From assembly GCF_024700885.2 (NCBI RefSeq), contig NZ_CP117016.1: DNA of 64,000 bases; one strand, 5' to 3'. Source of the stretch: Escherichia coli. GTDB lineage: Bacteria > Pseudomonadota > Gammaproteobacteria > Enterobacterales > Enterobacteriaceae. Shown piece by piece: positions 44,401-50,400 of the stretch. Every line of letters starts with the position of its first letter. Positions within the stretch are counted from its first letter, which is position 1. Position numbers: made by a program.

Positions 44401-47400
44401 CGCAGGATGCGCTGCGGATAATGGCGGTTCTCCCGCCAGCTGGCCGCATTGCGTCCGGCATTCACCGTGGCGACATGTCCGAACCAGCGGGTGCTGTCCA
44501 GACCTTTCTGTGATGCAAGCCGCCTGTCCCGTTGTACCCAGCCCAGACCACCGTTATAGCCCGACAGTGTCATGGCCATACGCTCGCAGTCACTGGCGGC
44601 GCTGACACGCTGCCACAGCCAGCGGTCATAGCTGACCAGCGCCCGGATAGCCCATGCCGGATTAAACGGCTCACGACTGCTCAGCATCGGTATCAACTGG
44701 CTTATCCAGTCGGCAGTGGCAGGCATGAACTGCGCCAGTCCCTGAGCGCCAGCCGGCGAGATCGCATCAGGTCGCCAGCCGCTTTCCTGATGCAGTTGCG
44801 CGGCGAAATCGGCCACCGGCGCAGACAGTCCCCATTCAAGCCGGGCATTACGGATCACATCATCGCGATACTGCAGCGCAGCCTGCGGAGGTTGTGCTGC
44901 GCATGCCTGGCTGAAAAAGCCGCCACACCAGAGCAACATTGCGACAAAGAATACCCATGCCATATGAACCAGAAAGGTCCCGGCGCGGACTGACAGGCGT
45001 TCGGTTCTGATGAAGACCCGAAAGGCTTCGAAAGCCAGTTTCAGGGACATGCATACAATCCAGGTGATCTGCGGCCAGTTCATGATTAAAGCCCCATCGC
45101 AACAGCCAGGCAGACCGCTGCAACAATCAGTGCACGGCGGATTAACGCAGCAGAAAACACCAGGTGAAGGCCGGTCTGTACCGGGAAACGCCCTTCAGCC
45201 ATCAGCCTGTCGTCATGTTTCAGGTACTGACCGGGACGGGCTTTGGGGAAGAGCGAACGGTCAAGCCAGTAACCCAGCACTGCTGCCAGCGTGATGAGTG
45301 CCAGCTTGTAGATCACAACAGGCAGCTGCTGTGGTGAGACCAGAGCGATGGTGCCCAGCAACAGCACTGAGGTCAGCAGCCAGCCGCTGAGGCGAGGTTT
45401 TTTAACAAGGGGAATGAATTTTTTCAGTTTTTTCATGTGTGTCTCCTTATCTGGTGGAGACAGCATCACAAATACAGGGCGCGAAGGATTTTAAAGCGCG
45501 TTAAGAGAGCCGGGGATACGGGATGTGCAGGATAAACGATGAATTATTCACAGAGGAGAATACGATATGACGCAGACACTGAATCCGGTCATCACTGTCA
45601 CCGTGTCCGGTCCTGTGGGCAGCGGTAAAAGTTACGTACTGGCGCGAATAGAGGAAGTGGTGAAACAGGAATTCGGAAACAGCGTCATTGTCGACGCCGC
45701 AGACGTGGACGGTGAGCGCCGTATGAGTGGGGATGATCTGAGCACATGGCAGAAACCACGGGCTGGCACAGTGATCAGGCTGGAGGAATACACGGGACAG
45801 GGCCTGTTGTCATACGGCGAGGAGCGTATCTGTCGGACGAATGAGCTGCTGGATGTTATATGCCCCACGGGCCGGCAACCCTGGATACTGCCCGATGCAC
45901 TGCATGCCACCATTGCGGCACTGATGACAGTTTACGATCAGGAGCTGCTCATGAAGGAGTTACGTAAACTCACTGGTCAGTCAACAGAATGTTGTTCGTC
46001 CCCGAAGTACGGCAAACAGGAACACATCCCGATTAACCAGCCTCCCCGGTTCTTCGACGAATACCTTCTGACACCGGAAAATAAAGCTGAGCATGAAGAG
46101 ATCAAAGCGGCGTTGTTCCGGGAAATCAGGAAGATTGCTGAAATGCAACTGGAGGGCGGGCTGGACAGAGTGATGGCGAGAGGAGAATGGGCATCGCTGT
46201 TTGAAAGAGTTTCCCCGGAATTACTTCCCCTCGCACTGGCTATCGGGATTATGCAGACAGCGGATAAACCTCACTTACGTTCATTAAACACGTAACGCAT
46301 AATCCGGGATACGCATTCAGCGATGACTGCATTTTCACCGGTTTTTACTGCATCCAGAAGTGACTCTTTAAATGGTACGGGCCGGGGCTGCAGAAAGGTC
46401 GGCATGGCATTGAGCAGACAGAGCGTTTTTTCCGTGAGGACGACATCAGCCGCTCCCACAGCCAGCAACTGAGAGTAACGAATATAGCTGTTATCCCGAA
46501 GCCATATCAGCGTATCAATAAAACACCGGCACTTTTTCTGGTCGTGATCAACCTGGTCCGGGATATCGAAAAAACCAGAATAAATCAAAACCTGAGGTGC
46601 CGGATGCGTGTTCAGTAATCGGCAGAATATTTTGCCGGTGAGTACATAAAAATCATCATTTAAGGAGTGCATCATGAATCCCCGATTAACGTTAACAGAA
46701 CATCAGCGCCGTGCTGAAGCAGTGAACAATGTTCTGGAAGATATTATCCGGTTATACCGCGGAGAACTGAGTGTCTGTCGTGCCGCTTTTCATTTTCAGG
46801 GAATACAAAAGCAGTTTGATACTTCTGTTTTTGCAGAAGGTATTACTTATGCCCTGGACCGGATAAGGTCAGAAAATCGCCCCGGATAATCCCTAAACCA
46901 CATTAACAGAAATCCCGCCATCCCTGCCGCATCATGAAAGAACGACCAGCCCGGCACCCGAAAGCCGGGCTGGTCATCGCCCCACAGGAATGCGCTGTGA
47001 GCCGACCAAGGTTCAGTCAGTCTCGCGAGACCTGACCAGACTGCCATATTTTTTAATAATTGTAAAAGGCTTGCAGATTATGAAAATGCAGACATTACCC
47101 ATCGTGCCGTGGATTGGTGGCAAACGCCGCCTTGCAAAACACATTCTGCCGCTGTTTCCGGCGCATGAATGTTATGTGGAGCCGTTTTGTGGGGCAGCAG
47201 CGCTCTATTTTCTTAAGACACCCGGCAAGATCGAAGTCATCAATGATATCAACGGTGAACTGGTGAATCTGTACCGGGTGGTAAAGCATCACCTGGAAGA
47301 ATTTGTCCGCCAGTTCAAATGGGCGCTGGTCAGCCGTCAGATCTACAAATGGCTGCAGATCACCCCGGAAGAAACACTGACGGATATCCAGCGTGCGGCA

Positions 47401-50400
47401 CGGTTCTACTACCTTCAGAAGCAGGCGTTTGGCGGCAAGGTGGCAGAGCACAGCTTCGGTACCTCCACCACATCCCCGCCACGCTTCAACCTGCTACGTA
47501 TTGAAGAAGAACTGTCAGCGGCACACCTGCGGCTTTCCAGAACAGTCATAGAACACATGGACTGGCAACAGTGCATTGAGCGTTATGATCGTCCGCACAC
47601 GCTGTTCTACTGCGACCCACCGTACCTGGGTACGGAAGGCTATGGTGTGGATTTTCCTGAAGGGAACTACTCGCGGCTGGCAGAGCTGGCCCGGTGCATC
47701 AGAGGAAAAATGATAATTTCGGTGAACGACATCCCGCAGATGCGCGAGGTGTTCACTGGACTGAACATACAGACAGTGAATATCAACTACAGTCTGGCGG
47801 GTAAACCCACGCCGCGCCGTGAACTGCTAATCTGCAACTTCTGAAACAAAACCGGAAAGCACAATGCTTTCCGGTAAACCAAACAACTTCCACTATGTCA
47901 CTGGCGATGTTTTCTGAAAGCATCCAGATCAACCACCTGTCCTTTGTGTCCGGGTCAGTATCAGCCTGCGATTTTTCCTGGTTTTGGCTGAGTATAGAAT
48001 CGCCCAATCTCAAGAAATGAGCGTTGTTGGTCTGGTGTCATGTCGTCAAAAGTATCTATTAGTTTTTGTTTTTCTGGGGAAATTTGATTCTGGTTTCTAG
48101 TCATACCATCTGTGCTCATTCCAGTGAGCAACCAATTTACATCAACATTAAACTCTTGATGCATCTTTAACAGAAACTCCCCTCCAGGCATCGCCTTTCC
48201 ATTTTCAATCTGACTGATACCACCATTAGAAATACCTAAACGAGCTGCAAATTCTCTCTGGTTCAACCCTGCTTTCTTCCTCACAGAAATAACGCGCTCT
48301 CCTATATCTTTGCTCATAAAAGTGAATCTCTATCTTGATATGCTCATAATTATGAGCAATAATCTAACACATATAAGGCAAACATCATTGCATCAACAAA
48401 GGAGACAACGATGACTGCAGAACAAGTCAAAGCTCTCTTCCGCCAGCGCGGGATCACTTTCACCCGCTGGGCAGAAGAAAACGGCTACAACCGCAATGAG
48501 GTATACCGCGTTCTCAACGGGCAGACCAAAGCCCGTTACGGTAAATCCCATGAAATCGCCGTGAAGTTGGGACTGAAATCAACAGCTCAGGCGGCCTAAA
48601 TATTTTGAGTCTTTGTAAAAGGTTATCACATATCGCAAAAGAGGTATGCAGATGAGTAAGACGAATGTTTCAAGCTCCGGCAGTCGCATCCTCCGGGTAC
48701 TCAAAGCGCTGCGCGGTCATGCCCTGAACGGTATTTCTAACGGTGAACTGGCGACAGCACTGCACGAGTCACCGGCAAACATCAACCGGGCACTCAACAC
48801 CCTCATTGAAGAAGGGCTGGCTCTGAAACTGGAGAACGGACGTTTTGCACCGGGCATCCAGTTACTGCAGATCGCCATGGCCCACAGTAACGAGATGGCA
48901 CGTGCACAGGATCGTATTAACGAAATTAACCAACGTGTCATTTCAGGTAGTCGTTTGTAAGGAGTAATCAATGGGACGTACCAAATCACCGATTAACACT
49001 GAACTGAACGCCGATGTACCGCTGTCGGATGATCTCAACGTCAGCCTGAATGCCATGACACAGCATCGCATGGAGATCATGCAGCAGTTTGGTGATGGAC
49101 TGCCTTATGAACGTGAACGCATCGTTCACGAAGCACGTTTTTATATGGCGCAGAGTGCTGAATCTATGTTGGAAGCGGGTAAGCGGCTGATCATCTTAAA
49201 AGAAAATGAACCGCATGGTGATTTCACAAATATTCTGGAAAACGACCTCGGATTAGCACCACAGGTAGCTCGTCGCATGATGCAGGCCAGCGTGAAATTT
49301 CTCGGCAATGGAGATGAACAGCCAAAACGCTCAGCGCTGAGCGTTTTGGGAAAAACCAAGTTATATGAACTGATGGTTCTGGATGACGAAGAACTCGACG
49401 CATTAGCTGATGGTGGAACCGTCGCCGGTGCAACGCTTGATGATATTGATCGCATGACCAGCCGCGAACTGAAGGCCGCCCTGCGTGAAGCGCGCGAAAC
49501 CAACGCAGCTCAGCAACAGGTGCTTGCCGGAAAGGACGAAAAAATCAACGAACTGGCCACAAAACTGGAGAAGAAATCGCGCCTGCAACCTCCGCCGCCA
49601 GACGAAGAACTGAAAAAATTGCGGGCGGAAGTGACGGCATTAGCGGTTGAGGCCGAATCGGCTATCGCCGTCCGGCTGTCCAGTGTTTTTGAGACCCTGT
49701 GTGAATACTGCACCAAAAACATGATCGATACCCCCAGAGATTTCATGGCCGGTCTGGTCTGCCAGATTGAACGCAGTGTTCATGCATTACGTGAGACGTT
49801 TGACCTTGAGGCCGCTCCATCGGGTAACGATGCCCCCGCCTGGCTGACCGAACCGGAACCTGAAATCAACCGACCGGAGGATATGCAGTAATGAATACGA
49901 ATAACACACAAAATACCCTGATGGACAGCCCGGAGGCACTGGGGCACGCACTGTGTAATCTGCTGCCGGAGATGGTGCAGGGTTTCCGCGTGGTGACCCC
50001 TTCCGGTGAAATCTGCGTACCCGCACAGGAGACGCACCCGTTTGTACTGACGATGGAGGTGATGCTGATGCAGCAGATAAGACGTCTGCAGAATCAGTCA
50101 GCATTACGCCCGGTAGTTGCACCGCAACCGGTAAATACCGTGGTGAAAACCTGCGATGGCGAAACACTGTGCGACCTCGCCAGAAAAATTGCCGCCAGAA
50201 TCGGATAACAGGGAAGACAAGCTATGACCCCGGCACTGACTGAAAAACTGGTTGAAACAGCCCGCGCGGCACGTGACGCGGGGCATGGTAAACGCGGTGC
50301 AATATACGACGCTGCCTGTGCTGAACTTGGCATGTCCCGCGCCACTCTGCTGCGCAGGCTGAAGGAGGTATCTGTGACTGATAAACGCAAAAAACGCGCC

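What the first reader, a model, noticed from the sequence alone, without database searches (positions are those of the whole stretch)
47080..47844. Prophage-encoded Dam-class adenine methyltransferase in the same island as the Dam-dependent agn43 switch
The DPPY motif and SAM-binding motifs indicate an N6-adenine methyltransferase. It converges on the repressor gene and shares a hairpin terminator with it. Possible roles are anti-restriction, control of transposition or late expression, or altered GATC methylation affecting host phase-variable loci such as the agn43 switch 37 kb away. No cognate restriction endonuclease gene is adjacent, so it looks like an orphan methyltransferase.
Basis: partly seen in the sequence, partly recalled or inferred. 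Interest (0 to 1): 0.5.

Follow-up and report, generated by a model that had tools for sequence, protein, structure and literature searches.

The report
Late-expressed orphan methylase of Mu-like prophage
This is an intact DNA adenine methyltransferase gene on a Mu-like transposable prophage, already catalogued as M.EcoMIV, probably switched on only during lytic growth to protect phage DNA, with no demonstrable link to the agn43 switch 37 kb away.

Summary
Window 47080-47844 (+) is an intact 254-codon D12-class (alpha-group) N6-adenine DNA methyltransferase with DPPY and SAM motifs and a Dam-like fold. No nuclease gene lies beside it.

It is not new. The protein is identical to WP_000783854.1, which is M.EcoMIV on prophage Phi2 of E. 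coli ST131 EC958. That gene is poorly transcribed in the lysogen, and no methylation motif was assigned to it.

The carrier is a 37.1-kb BcepMu-like transposable prophage (20055-57174) with TG..CA ends and a 6-bp target duplication. In this strain it sits in cbtA of a CP4-44-like island. In ST131 it sits between aroA and ycaL. So its closeness to agn43, which is frameshifted here, is an accident of transposition.

Most EcoDam residues that read GATC (K9, N120, L122, R124, P134) are replaced, so GATC specificity is unproven.

Upstream lies the dyad plus -10 architecture that I found at every late operon of this phage and of BcepMu. It is followed by a strongly conserved 140-nt leader. Most likely this is a late, Mor/C-activated anti-restriction methylase, a regulatory counterpart of Mu mom. 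Its target is unknown.

The "shared terminator" has its T-run only on the repressor's strand.

The parts
47080..47844 (+). Orphan alpha-group (D12-class) N6-adenine DNA methyltransferase, 254 aa. It is WP_000783854.1, which is M.EcoMIV of EC958 prophage Phi2.
   Evidence: literature
46893..46906 (+). Dyad motif CTAAACCACATTAA (YTAA-N6-TTAA). It is the same motif that precedes the late operons of this prophage and of BcepMu. It is the candidate binding site of the Mor/C-family late activator.
46930..46935 (+). -10-like hexamer CATCAT, 23 nt downstream of the dyad, the same spacing as at the late promoters. The predicted transcription start is about 46941-46943.
   Evidence: inference; start site not mapped
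46937..47079 (+). Conserved non-coding leader (candidate 5' UTR). It contains hairpin H1 (46944-46975, with compensatory changes), inverted repeat CACAG/CTGTG (46983-46999), and the 12-bp perfect palindrome GTCTCGCGAGAC (47020-47031) inside a roughly 32-nt imperfect palindrome. A predicted helix pairs 46995-47003 with 47068-47076 and would cover the Shine-Dalgarno-like AAGG.
   Evidence: no Rfam family
47851..47875 (-). Hairpin with an 11-bp stem followed by TTTTGTTT on the minus strand. It is an intrinsic terminator of the repressor gene. On the plus strand it has no U-tract.
47961..48317 (-). HTH (cI/Cro-type) immunity repressor, convergent with the methyltransferase.
56623..57012 (+). Mor/C-family late transcription activator, the presumed regulator of the dyad-type promoters.
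20055..57174 (.). BcepMu-like (Bcepmuvirus) transposable prophage, 37,120 bp, with TG...CA ends. It is flanked by the 6-bp duplication GTGAAC (20049-20054 and 57175-57180) and is inserted in cbtA.

Best explanation
The gene encodes M.EcoMIV, an orphan alpha-group N6-adenine DNA methyltransferase. It is a lineage-conserved cargo gene of enterobacterial BcepMu-like transposable phages and sits between the lysis cassette and the immunity repressor.

Shown: its identity, intactness, Dam-like fold, purifying selection, orphan status, prophage membership, and the transposition origin of the prophage's position.

Inferred: it is silent in the lysogen and transcribed as a late gene. Its leader is preceded by the same YTAA-N6-TTAA dyad plus A2/T6 -10 hexamer (23 nt apart) that precedes the holin, head, tail and baseplate operons here and in BcepMu. 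The phage's Mor/C-family activator should therefore switch it on during lytic growth. The mRNA would start near 46941 and carry a conserved, structured 140-nt leader that may further gate translation. The enzyme would then methylate replicating phage DNA before packaging, so that progeny escape restriction in the next host. This makes it the regulatory counterpart of Mu's Pmom-driven mom.

Its recognition sequence is undetermined. Because most of EcoDam's GATC-reading residues are replaced, I consider a site other than plain GATC more likely than not. It has no specific relation to agn43.
For: Identity. The 1.8-kb region is 100% identical in 387 or more complete E. coli genomes. The CDS there is WP_000783854.1, which is also present in EC958. 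That prophage is Phi2 and its methyltransferase is M.EcoMIV.

Fold and family.

Functional constraint: dN/dS is 0.09.

Prophage type and mobility.

Conserved slot. The order holin(-) | MTase(+) | repressor(-) recurs in Klebsiella, Pectobacterium and Erwinia-type prophages, while the flanking cargo differs.

Silent in the lysogen. RT-PCR signal is significantly below dam, and no extra SMRT motif was found in EC958.

Late-promoter architecture.
- The dyad is enriched in the window: 12 strand matches against 1.5 expected, and 16 against 1.9 allowing one mismatch.
- It lies in the intergenic regions before holin, head, tail and baseplate W.
- An independent test in BcepMu gave 3 hits against 0.18 expected, lying before holin gp21, head gp32 and baseplate gp49.
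- Every site has an A2/T6 hexamer 23 nt downstream, and the methyltransferase site has CATCAT.
- The dyad-to-hexamer spacing is kept across 25 versions while the spacer sequence varies.

Leader. It is about 88% identical between lineages whose synonymous sites are 57% different. Hairpin H1 shows compensatory double changes.

Context in other phages. In VP882 the homologue follows the tail genes on the same strand.

Precedent. Hia5 and Hin1523 in Mu-like prophages are silent in lysogens and protect DNA from restriction (PMC3299994).
Against: - No transcription start, induction data or methylation data exist for this gene.
- The dyad motif was derived partly from the sites it is then counted at. 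Only the tail and baseplate sites and the three BcepMu sites are independent.
- In the Pectobacterium and Erwinia-type arrangement a single dyad lies between holin and the methyltransferase, so it could serve holin only.
- The predicted Shine-Dalgarno-sequestering helix shows only wobble-type changes and no double compensation.
- A 65%-identical homologue in phi1026b is reported as expressed in a Burkholderia lysogen. Lysogenic expression is therefore possible in this family.
- The absence of an extra motif in EC958 is equally consistent with a GATC-specific enzyme masked by host Dam.
- The conserved K/R at the EcoDam L122 position could substitute for R124.
Confidence: 0.6

Rival explanations
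1. It is a true Dam paralogue specific for GATC. During lytic replication it tops up GATC methylation of rapidly replicating phage DNA, as T4 Dam or P1 Dam do. This would avoid MutH nicking or serve phage functions, and would add no new motif.
For: It passes the TIGR00571 'dam' subfamily cutoff. The closest solved structures are all GATC enzymes: EcoDam, DpnM and T4Dam. No additional m6A motif was seen in EC958, which carries the identical gene. The aromatic intercalator (Y119->F117) and R137/Y138-like residues are kept.
Against: The TIGR00571 score is only 1.7 bits above the cutoff, and the Dam equivalog scores 67 against 441. K9, N120, L122, R124 and P134 are replaced, and these positions vary within the family. 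An R124A change alone abolishes discrimination at the fourth base pair in EcoDam. The same fold also houses Mcbe1 (7m6b), which from my recollection may be a non-GATC enzyme.
Confidence: 0.27
2. It is a relaxed or nearly non-specific adenine methyltransferase like Hia5, Hin1523 or M.EcoGII, giving broad protection from many restriction enzymes.
For: The carrier is Mu-like and the gene is silent in the lysogen, as for Hia5 and Hin1523. The Dam specificity residues are lost. Homologous domains occur in giant multi-methylase fusion proteins.
Against: The recognition hairpin is retained at full length and is almost invariant between lineages at 85% identity (FGGKVA[E/D]HSFGTSTTS[P/A]PRF), which suggests a defined site. 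Hia5 is a much more distant family, about 15% identical to MboIA, whereas this protein hits Dam directly. Homology to Hia5 was not tested.
Confidence: 0.12
3. The enzyme acts as a lysogenic-conversion epigenetic regulator. Expressed from the prophage, it changes host methylation and thereby phase-variable loci such as the neighbouring agn43 switch, or controls phage transposition.
For: agn43 with its three GATC sites lies 36.8 kb away. A homologue is reported as expressed in a phi1026b lysogen. The gene has its own promoter region and flanking hairpins, a moron-like layout.
Against: The gene is poorly transcribed, and no motif was gained in the EC958 lysogen. GATC is already more than 99% methylated by host Dam. 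The GATC-reading residues are absent. The prophage's position is accidental and differs between strains. agn43 is frameshifted here. There is no GATC in the prophage termini (first and last 60 bp), in the methyltransferase upstream region 46890-47082, or in the 48318-48413 repressor/ner control region (sequences printed).
Confidence: 0.04

Closest known systems
M.EcoMIV (EC958_1101), prophage Phi2 of E. coli ST131 EC958 (Forde et al. 2015, PMC4659465)
   Same: The protein is identical (WP_000783854.1) and sits on the same BcepMu-like prophage, which is 99.3% identical in nucleotides. It has the D12 domain and is an orphan.
   Different: Only the chromosomal insertion site differs: cbtA in a CP4-44-like island here, aroA/ycaL in ST131. 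The published work left the target, regulation and role undetermined.
E. coli Dam, T4 Dam and DpnM (GATC-specific alpha-group m6A methyltransferases)
   Same: It shares the fold (TM 0.7-0.85), motif order, DPPY, the SAM motif and a recognition hairpin of the same length with an aromatic intercalator.
   Different: Identity is 24-26%. The Dam equivalog model is not met. K9, N120, L122, R124 and P134 are replaced. It is phage-borne and late-regulated rather than a housekeeping gene.
Mu mom (Pmom, activated by C) and the Hia5/Hin1523/Nma1821 methyltransferases of Mu-like prophages (Drozdz et al. 2012, PMC3299994)
   Same: It is a DNA-modification gene of a transposable phage, silent in the lysogen. 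It is apparently driven by the late activator, and its presumed role is anti-restriction.
   Different: [quoted passage not shown] No com homologue is present. It is unrelated to Mom, which is an acyltransferase-type enzyme. It is much closer to Dam than Hia5 is. Relaxed specificity is not shown.
Homologues in other temperate phages: phiE125 gp27, phi1026b gp26/27, KS9 gp25, VP882 Dam (64-66% identical)
   Same: They belong to the same subfamily and are orphan phage genes, often placed at the end of the late tail cluster.
   Different: The phage types and positions differ. phi1026b's copy is reported as expressed in a lysogen. From memory only, phiE125 gp27 was shown to produce m6A (Woods et al. 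2002); that paper could not be read here.

Membership tests
D12-class / alpha-group N6-adenine DNA methyltransferase (Pfam PF02086) | Full-length match to the family profile | tested here: met
   PF02086 E 6.9e-29 over residues 11-234, model positions 1-248 of 253. PADLOC MTase_II PDLC03253 E 6.4e-112.
D12-class / alpha-group N6-adenine DNA methyltransferase (Pfam PF02086) | Catalytic motif IV (DPPY), and SAM motif I placed N-terminal to the recognition domain | tested here: met
   D179-P-P-Y182, F36-x-G38 and D56 are all invariant in 73 relatives.
D12-class / alpha-group N6-adenine DNA methyltransferase (Pfam PF02086) | Dam-type two-domain fold | tested here: met
   Model pLDDT is 93.8. Foldseek gives EcoDam E 4e-18 with TM 0.79-0.85, and also hits DpnM and T4Dam.
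Dam proper (GATC-specific orthologues of E. coli Dam) | Reaches the curated equivalog score | tested here: not met
   NF008152 scores 67 bits against a cutoff of 441. The looser subfamily model TIGR00571 scores 116.6 against 114.85.
Dam proper (GATC-specific orthologues of E. coli Dam) | Conservation of the residues that read GATC (K9, Y119, N120, L122, R124, P134) | tested here: not met
   The substitutions are K9->P10, N120->G118, L122->K120, R124->A122 and P134->S132. Only Y119->F117 is conservative. Residue roles are from PMC4417163.
Dam proper (GATC-specific orthologues of E. coli Dam) | Methylates the adenine of GATC | not testable with these tools
   This needs expression in a dam- host followed by DpnI/MboI digestion or a SMRT/nanopore methylome.
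Orphan methyltransferase (no cognate restriction enzyme) | No endonuclease gene adjacent, and no conserved partner gene | tested here: met
   The neighbours 45567-46295, 46271-46675 and 46674-46889 have no Pfam nuclease domain and no significant PADLOC match; the best is E about 3e-3. The neighbours differ in KP12, Klebsiella, Pectobacterium and Erwinia-type prophages. A nuclease of an unknown fold cannot be excluded.
Bcepmuvirus-type transposable prophage | DDE transposase plus ATPase, Mor-family activator, Mu-type head and P2-type tail genes, in BcepMu gene order | tested here: met
   Phage PhiKM (classified as Bcepmuvirus) is 99% identical.
Bcepmuvirus-type transposable prophage | Insertion by transposition: TG..CA ends, a short target duplication, and an empty site elsewhere | tested here: met
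   Ends are TGATG...AATCA and the duplication is GTGAAC x2. The uninterrupted cbtA site is present in strain SLK172. The insertion site is different in ST131.
Mu mom / Hia5-type late anti-restriction modification module | Late-activator (C/Mor)-dependent promoter | tested here: inconclusive
   The dyad plus -10 architecture is shared with the late operons and with BcepMu, but no expression data exist.
Mu mom / Hia5-type late anti-restriction modification module | [quoted passage not shown] | tested here: not met
   The gene lies centrally. The only CxxC..CxxC small ORF (54098-54292) has no significant Pfam match to any family, Com included, and falls in PHROG 3401 of unknown function.
Mu mom / Hia5-type late anti-restriction modification module | Broad or relaxed modification that blocks many restriction enzymes | not testable with these tools
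   This needs biochemical or methylome data.
Dam/OxyR-controlled agn43 phase switch (the claimed functional partner) | The methyltransferase is expressed in the lysogen and acts on the GATC sites of the switch | tested here: not met
   The switch is present (3 GATC). But the identical gene is poorly transcribed and adds no motif in EC958, the GATC-reading residues are absent, and agn43 is frameshifted here.

The most novel reading that the evidence does not exclude
M.EcoMIV-type enzymes are the BcepMu-lineage counterpart of Mu's mom. On this reading they form a fifth unit of the Mor/C-activated late regulon. They would be transcribed from a dyad-dependent promoter into an mRNA with a conserved, structured 140-nt leader that gates translation. 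They would recognise a sequence other than GATC, either a new specificity or a relaxed one. That would give a very widespread group of enterobacterial prophages, present in about 10% of complete E. coli genomes, a hidden anti-restriction function invisible to lysogen methylomes.
Probability: 0.3. Interest if true: 0.4.

Novelty: already known. Interest (0 to 1): 0.2.

Why it matters
The gene itself is ordinary and already catalogued, so the finding as written adds little. Its one eye-catching idea, a prophage methylase tuning the neighbouring agn43 switch, does not survive checking.

What remains useful is practical. The identical enzyme sits in hundreds of clinical E. coli genomes, including the ST131 pandemic clone. 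Its target has never been determined, and lysogen methylomes cannot reveal it if it is a late gene. The late-promoter dyad and the conserved leader give a concrete, testable route to switching it on, either by Mor overexpression or by prophage induction. Its motif could then be read, which would also help predict which restriction systems BcepMu-like phages evade.

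Tried and rejected
1. Sigma-70 consensus scan. It gave CTGACC-17-AATAAT at 47032-47060, but that element is not conserved in relatives, so I dropped it as the main promoter.
2. A shared-10-mer search between the methyltransferase upstream region and other promoter regions found nothing useful.
3. The 12-bp palindrome GTCTCGCGAGAC does not recur in the prophage, so it is not a general operator.
4. The Rfam scan of 45400-48700 gave no hit.
5. The upstream in-frame ORF from 46990 varies at codon positions 1 and 2 and is truncated by stops in relatives. 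It is therefore not a conserved N-terminal extension or leader peptide.
6. The search for a Com-like protein found only a 64-aa CxxC ORF with no Com match.
7. GATC counts: the prophage has 94 against 178 Markov-expected, but the flanks are equally depleted, so this is uninformative.
8. Literature on target specificity of close homologues. The phiE125 and VP882 primary papers are not held. The papers I could read on VHML, Burkholderia phages and the Shewanella Mu-like prophages give no recognition site for this subfamily. No later work on M.EcoMIV exists in the library.

Full report

Yes. Window 47080-47844 (+) is an uninterrupted 254-codon ORF.
- It matches Pfam PF02086 (D12-class N6-adenine DNA methyltransferase) end to end (E 6.9e-29).
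- It matches PHROG 56 (E 1.5e-100) and a PADLOC Type II methyltransferase model (E 6e-112).
- The catalytic D179-P-P-Y182 and the SAM-binding F36-x-G38 motifs are present. All ten residues that are invariant in an alignment of 73 diverse relatives are present too.
- An AlphaFold model built on that alignment is confident (pLDDT 93.8). It superposes on E. coli Dam, DpnM and T4 Dam (Foldseek E down to 4e-18, TM 0.7-0.85).
- Against an 85%-identical homologue from Klebsiella-type prophages the gene shows dN/dS = 0.09 at dS about 1.1. It is therefore under purifying selection and is not decaying.
- The start at 47080 is supported by the N-termini of homologues and by stop codons in the upstream frame in relatives. 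The longer ORF from 46990, used in the PhiKM record, is not conserved.

**2. What carries it?**

The window is E. coli MLI114 (NZ_CP117013.1). The gene lies in a 37,120-bp prophage at 20055-57174.
- The prophage is 99% identical to Escherichia phage PhiKM, which is classified as Bcepmuvirus.
- It follows the BcepMu gene order: Mor, GemA, Gam, an ExeA-type ATPase, a DDE transposase, Ner-like and repressor genes, lysis genes, a Mu-type head, a P2-type tail, and an invertible tail-fibre segment.
- Its ends are TG...CA, and it is flanked by a 6-bp direct duplication GTGAAC.
- Strains such as SLK172 have the uninterrupted target, which is the toxin gene cbtA of a CP4-44-like island.
- In ST131 strains, including EC958, the same prophage lies between aroA and ycaL.

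The element therefore moved by Mu-type transposition, and its place next to agn43 in this strain is accidental.

**3. It is already catalogued.**

The 1.8-kb region around the gene is 100% identical in ST131 genomes. 546 of 5426 complete E. coli genomes have a match, and 387 of these are at 99% identity or more.
- The CDS there is WP_000783854.1. EC958 carries the same protein at 1031787-1032551.
- That EC958 prophage carries tail-fibre inversion sites published as belonging to Phi2.
- Forde et al. 2015 named the Phi2 D12-class enzyme M.EcoMIV (EC958_1101). They reported that no homologue above 65% identity had a known site.
- They also found that the gene is transcribed significantly below dam in LB mid-log culture. 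All m6A motifs of EC958 were accounted for by other enzymes, so they predicted M.EcoMIV to be inactive in the lysogen.
- I found no later characterisation in the library.

**4. Is it a Dam?**

Only in the broad sense. It just passes the TIGR00571 'dam' subfamily cutoff (116.6 against 114.85). It fails the E. coli Dam equivalog model (67 against 441).

In EcoDam the GATC site is read as follows (PMC4417163):
- R124 reads the fourth base pair, and R124A loses that discrimination.
- L122 and P134 read the third base pair.
- Y119 intercalates into the DNA.
- N120 contacts the orphan thymine.
- K9 and Y138 read the first base pair.

Here the hairpin has the same length and keeps the aromatic residue (F117). 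But K9->P10, N120->G118, L122->K120, R124->A122 and P134->S132, and these positions vary across the family. The hairpin is nearly invariant between the E. coli and Klebsiella lineages, which argues for a defined site rather than none.

My estimates are plain GATC about 0.3, another specific site about 0.5, and relaxed specificity about 0.15. This cannot be settled in silico.

**5. Is it an orphan?**

Yes, as far as can be tested.
- The three small genes upstream (45567-46889) have only a Walker-A motif or no recognisable domain.
- In KP12, Klebsiella, Pectobacterium and Erwinia-type relatives these genes are replaced by different genes or are absent. The methyltransferase keeps its slot and orientation between holin and repressor.
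- BcepMu itself has other cargo in that slot and no methylase.

**6. The 'shared terminator'.**

An 11-bp-stem hairpin lies at 47851-47875 (dG -17.6, z -5.3). The T-run follows it only on the minus strand (TTTTGTTT). It is therefore a terminator for the repressor transcript. On the methyltransferase strand it is followed by UAAACCAAAC. A hairpin of different sequence occupies the same place in KP12, again without a plus-strand T-run.

**7. How is it expressed?**

This part is inference. The roughly 145 nt upstream of the ATG are about 88% identical between lineages whose synonymous sites differ at 57%. I collected 24 distinct versions from IMG/VR. The leader contains:
- hairpin H1 (46944-46975), with compensatory double changes in four pairs;
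- a small inverted repeat;
- a perfect 12-bp palindrome (47020-47031), which in Pectobacterium is replaced by a different perfect palindrome;
- a predicted long-range helix that would cover the Shine-Dalgarno-like AAGG. Only wobble changes support it, so the evidence is weak.

No Rfam family matches.

Immediately upstream lies CTAAACCACATTAA (46893-46906). The same dyad (YTAA-N6-TTAA) lies in the intergenic regions before four late operons:
- holin (45491-45504);
- head (38024-38037);
- tail (32106-32119);
- baseplate W (26016-26029).

This gives 12 strand matches in the window against 1.5 expected. I derived the motif from three of these sites, so I tested it in BcepMu from Burkholderia. There it gave 3 hits against 0.18 expected, lying before holin gp21, head gp32 and baseplate gp49.

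At every site a -10-like hexamer with A2 and T6 lies 23 nt downstream:
- window sites: GATGCT, CAAACT, CATACT, AATACT;
- BcepMu sites: CAAGAT, GATGAT, CAACAT;
- methyltransferase site: CATCAT at 46930-46935.

This spacing is held across 25 leader versions while the spacer sequence varies. The predicted start (about 46941) coincides with the point where leader conservation begins.

The natural reading is a promoter that lacks a -35 element and depends on an activator. The activator would be the phage's Mor/C-family protein (56623-57012). That makes the methyltransferase a late gene. It fits its silence in the EC958 lysogen, and it parallels Mu, where the C-dependent late promoters are Plys, PI, PP and Pmom (Mu facts from my own knowledge).

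H1 has a T-rich tail on the minus strand only. It could also insulate the lysis operon from read-through coming from the repressor side.

**8. Function.**

A late-expressed orphan methylase most plausibly modifies progeny DNA before packaging, to evade restriction in the next host. The closest precedent among transposable phages is the Hia5/Hin1523/Nma1821 group, which replace mom, are silent in lysogens and protect DNA from many enzymes (PMC3299994). [quoted passage not shown] Here there is no Com homologue.

**9. The agn43 idea.**

The switch is there, with GATC at 10257, 10276 and 10289, but the proposed link fails on every testable point:
- the placement is accidental (section 2);
- the enzyme acts in trans;
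- host Dam already methylates more than 99% of GATC;
- the gene is poorly transcribed and contributes no motif in a lysogen;
- most GATC-reading residues are absent;
- agn43 in this window is split by a frameshift near 12.75-12.83 kb.

**10. Verdict.**

The gene is a known, very common prophage methyltransferase (M.EcoMIV) whose target is still unknown. The modest new points are the non-Dam recognition residues, the late-promoter architecture shared with BcepMu, and the conserved structured leader. Interest is low (0.2). The most novel reading still open is a mom-like late anti-restriction module with a non-GATC target, at probability 0.3.

Noticed in passing
window 10478-13596 (agn43); regulatory GATCs at 10257, 10276, 10289: agn43 is split by a frameshift: an 841-codon stretch from 10302 and a 282-codon stretch from 12749 in another frame. 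PGAP flags it as 'frameshifted' in MLI114. The three-GATC OxyR/Dam switch upstream is intact.
   Followed up: partly
window 20049-20054 and 57175-57180; cbtA fragment 19862-20053: The BcepMu-like prophage interrupts the toxin gene cbtA of the cbeA-cbtA toxin-antitoxin pair, with a 6-bp GTGAAC target duplication. The antitoxin cbeA (19405-19773) stays intact. The empty site is present in strain SLK172.
   Followed up: yes
window 45491-45504, 38024-38037, 32106-32119, 26016-26029, 46893-46906; L008 (BcepMu) 11485, 18812, 30774: A dyad YTAA-N6-TTAA followed 23 nt later by an A2/T6 hexamer marks the late operons of this prophage and of Burkholderia phage BcepMu. It is a candidate Mor/C-type late-promoter signature for the whole Bcepmuvirus group. 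A sixth copy (20548-20561) lies inside the Gin-like invertase ORF and is unexplained.
   Followed up: partly
window 45567-46889: Three genes of unknown function lie here: a 242-aa protein with a Walker-A GPVGSGKS motif (PHROG 3787), a 133-aa protein on the minus strand (PHROG 2266), and a 71-aa protein (PHROG 4490). They sit between holin and the methyltransferase only in the E. coli type, flanked by two copies of the late-promoter dyad. Related prophages have DUF2441 or nothing there.
   Followed up: partly
window 54098-54292 (+): A 64-aa ORF with CxxC-N30-CxxC (zinc-ribbon-like, PHROG 3401, unknown function) lies in the early or middle region. I checked it as a possible Com analogue, but it has no Com-family match.
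   Followed up: partly
window 48342-48357: A perfect 16-bp palindrome GCTCATAATTATGAGC lies between the divergent repressor and ner-like genes. It overlaps a strong sigma-70-like promoter (TTGATA-17-AATAAT, 48335-48363) and is probably the immunity operator at the early promoter.
   Followed up: no
proteins P0137, P0152, P0155, P0163, P0200, P0249: Some relatives of this methyltransferase domain occur two to four times within giant proteins of 1000-2500 aa. These look like multi-methylase fusion proteins from metagenomes.
   Followed up: no
window 20133-23740 and 29467-29758: A Gin-like invertase sits next to a tail-fibre region with several inverted and direct repeats. Inversion of this segment was seen in EC958 Phi2 (PMC4134206). 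The window copy is 260 bp longer than the ST131 copy in the tail-fibre repeat region near 23.3 kb, and one base shorter in a roughly 290-bp overlapping (repeat) stretch of the tape-measure gene at 29467-29758.
   Followed up: no
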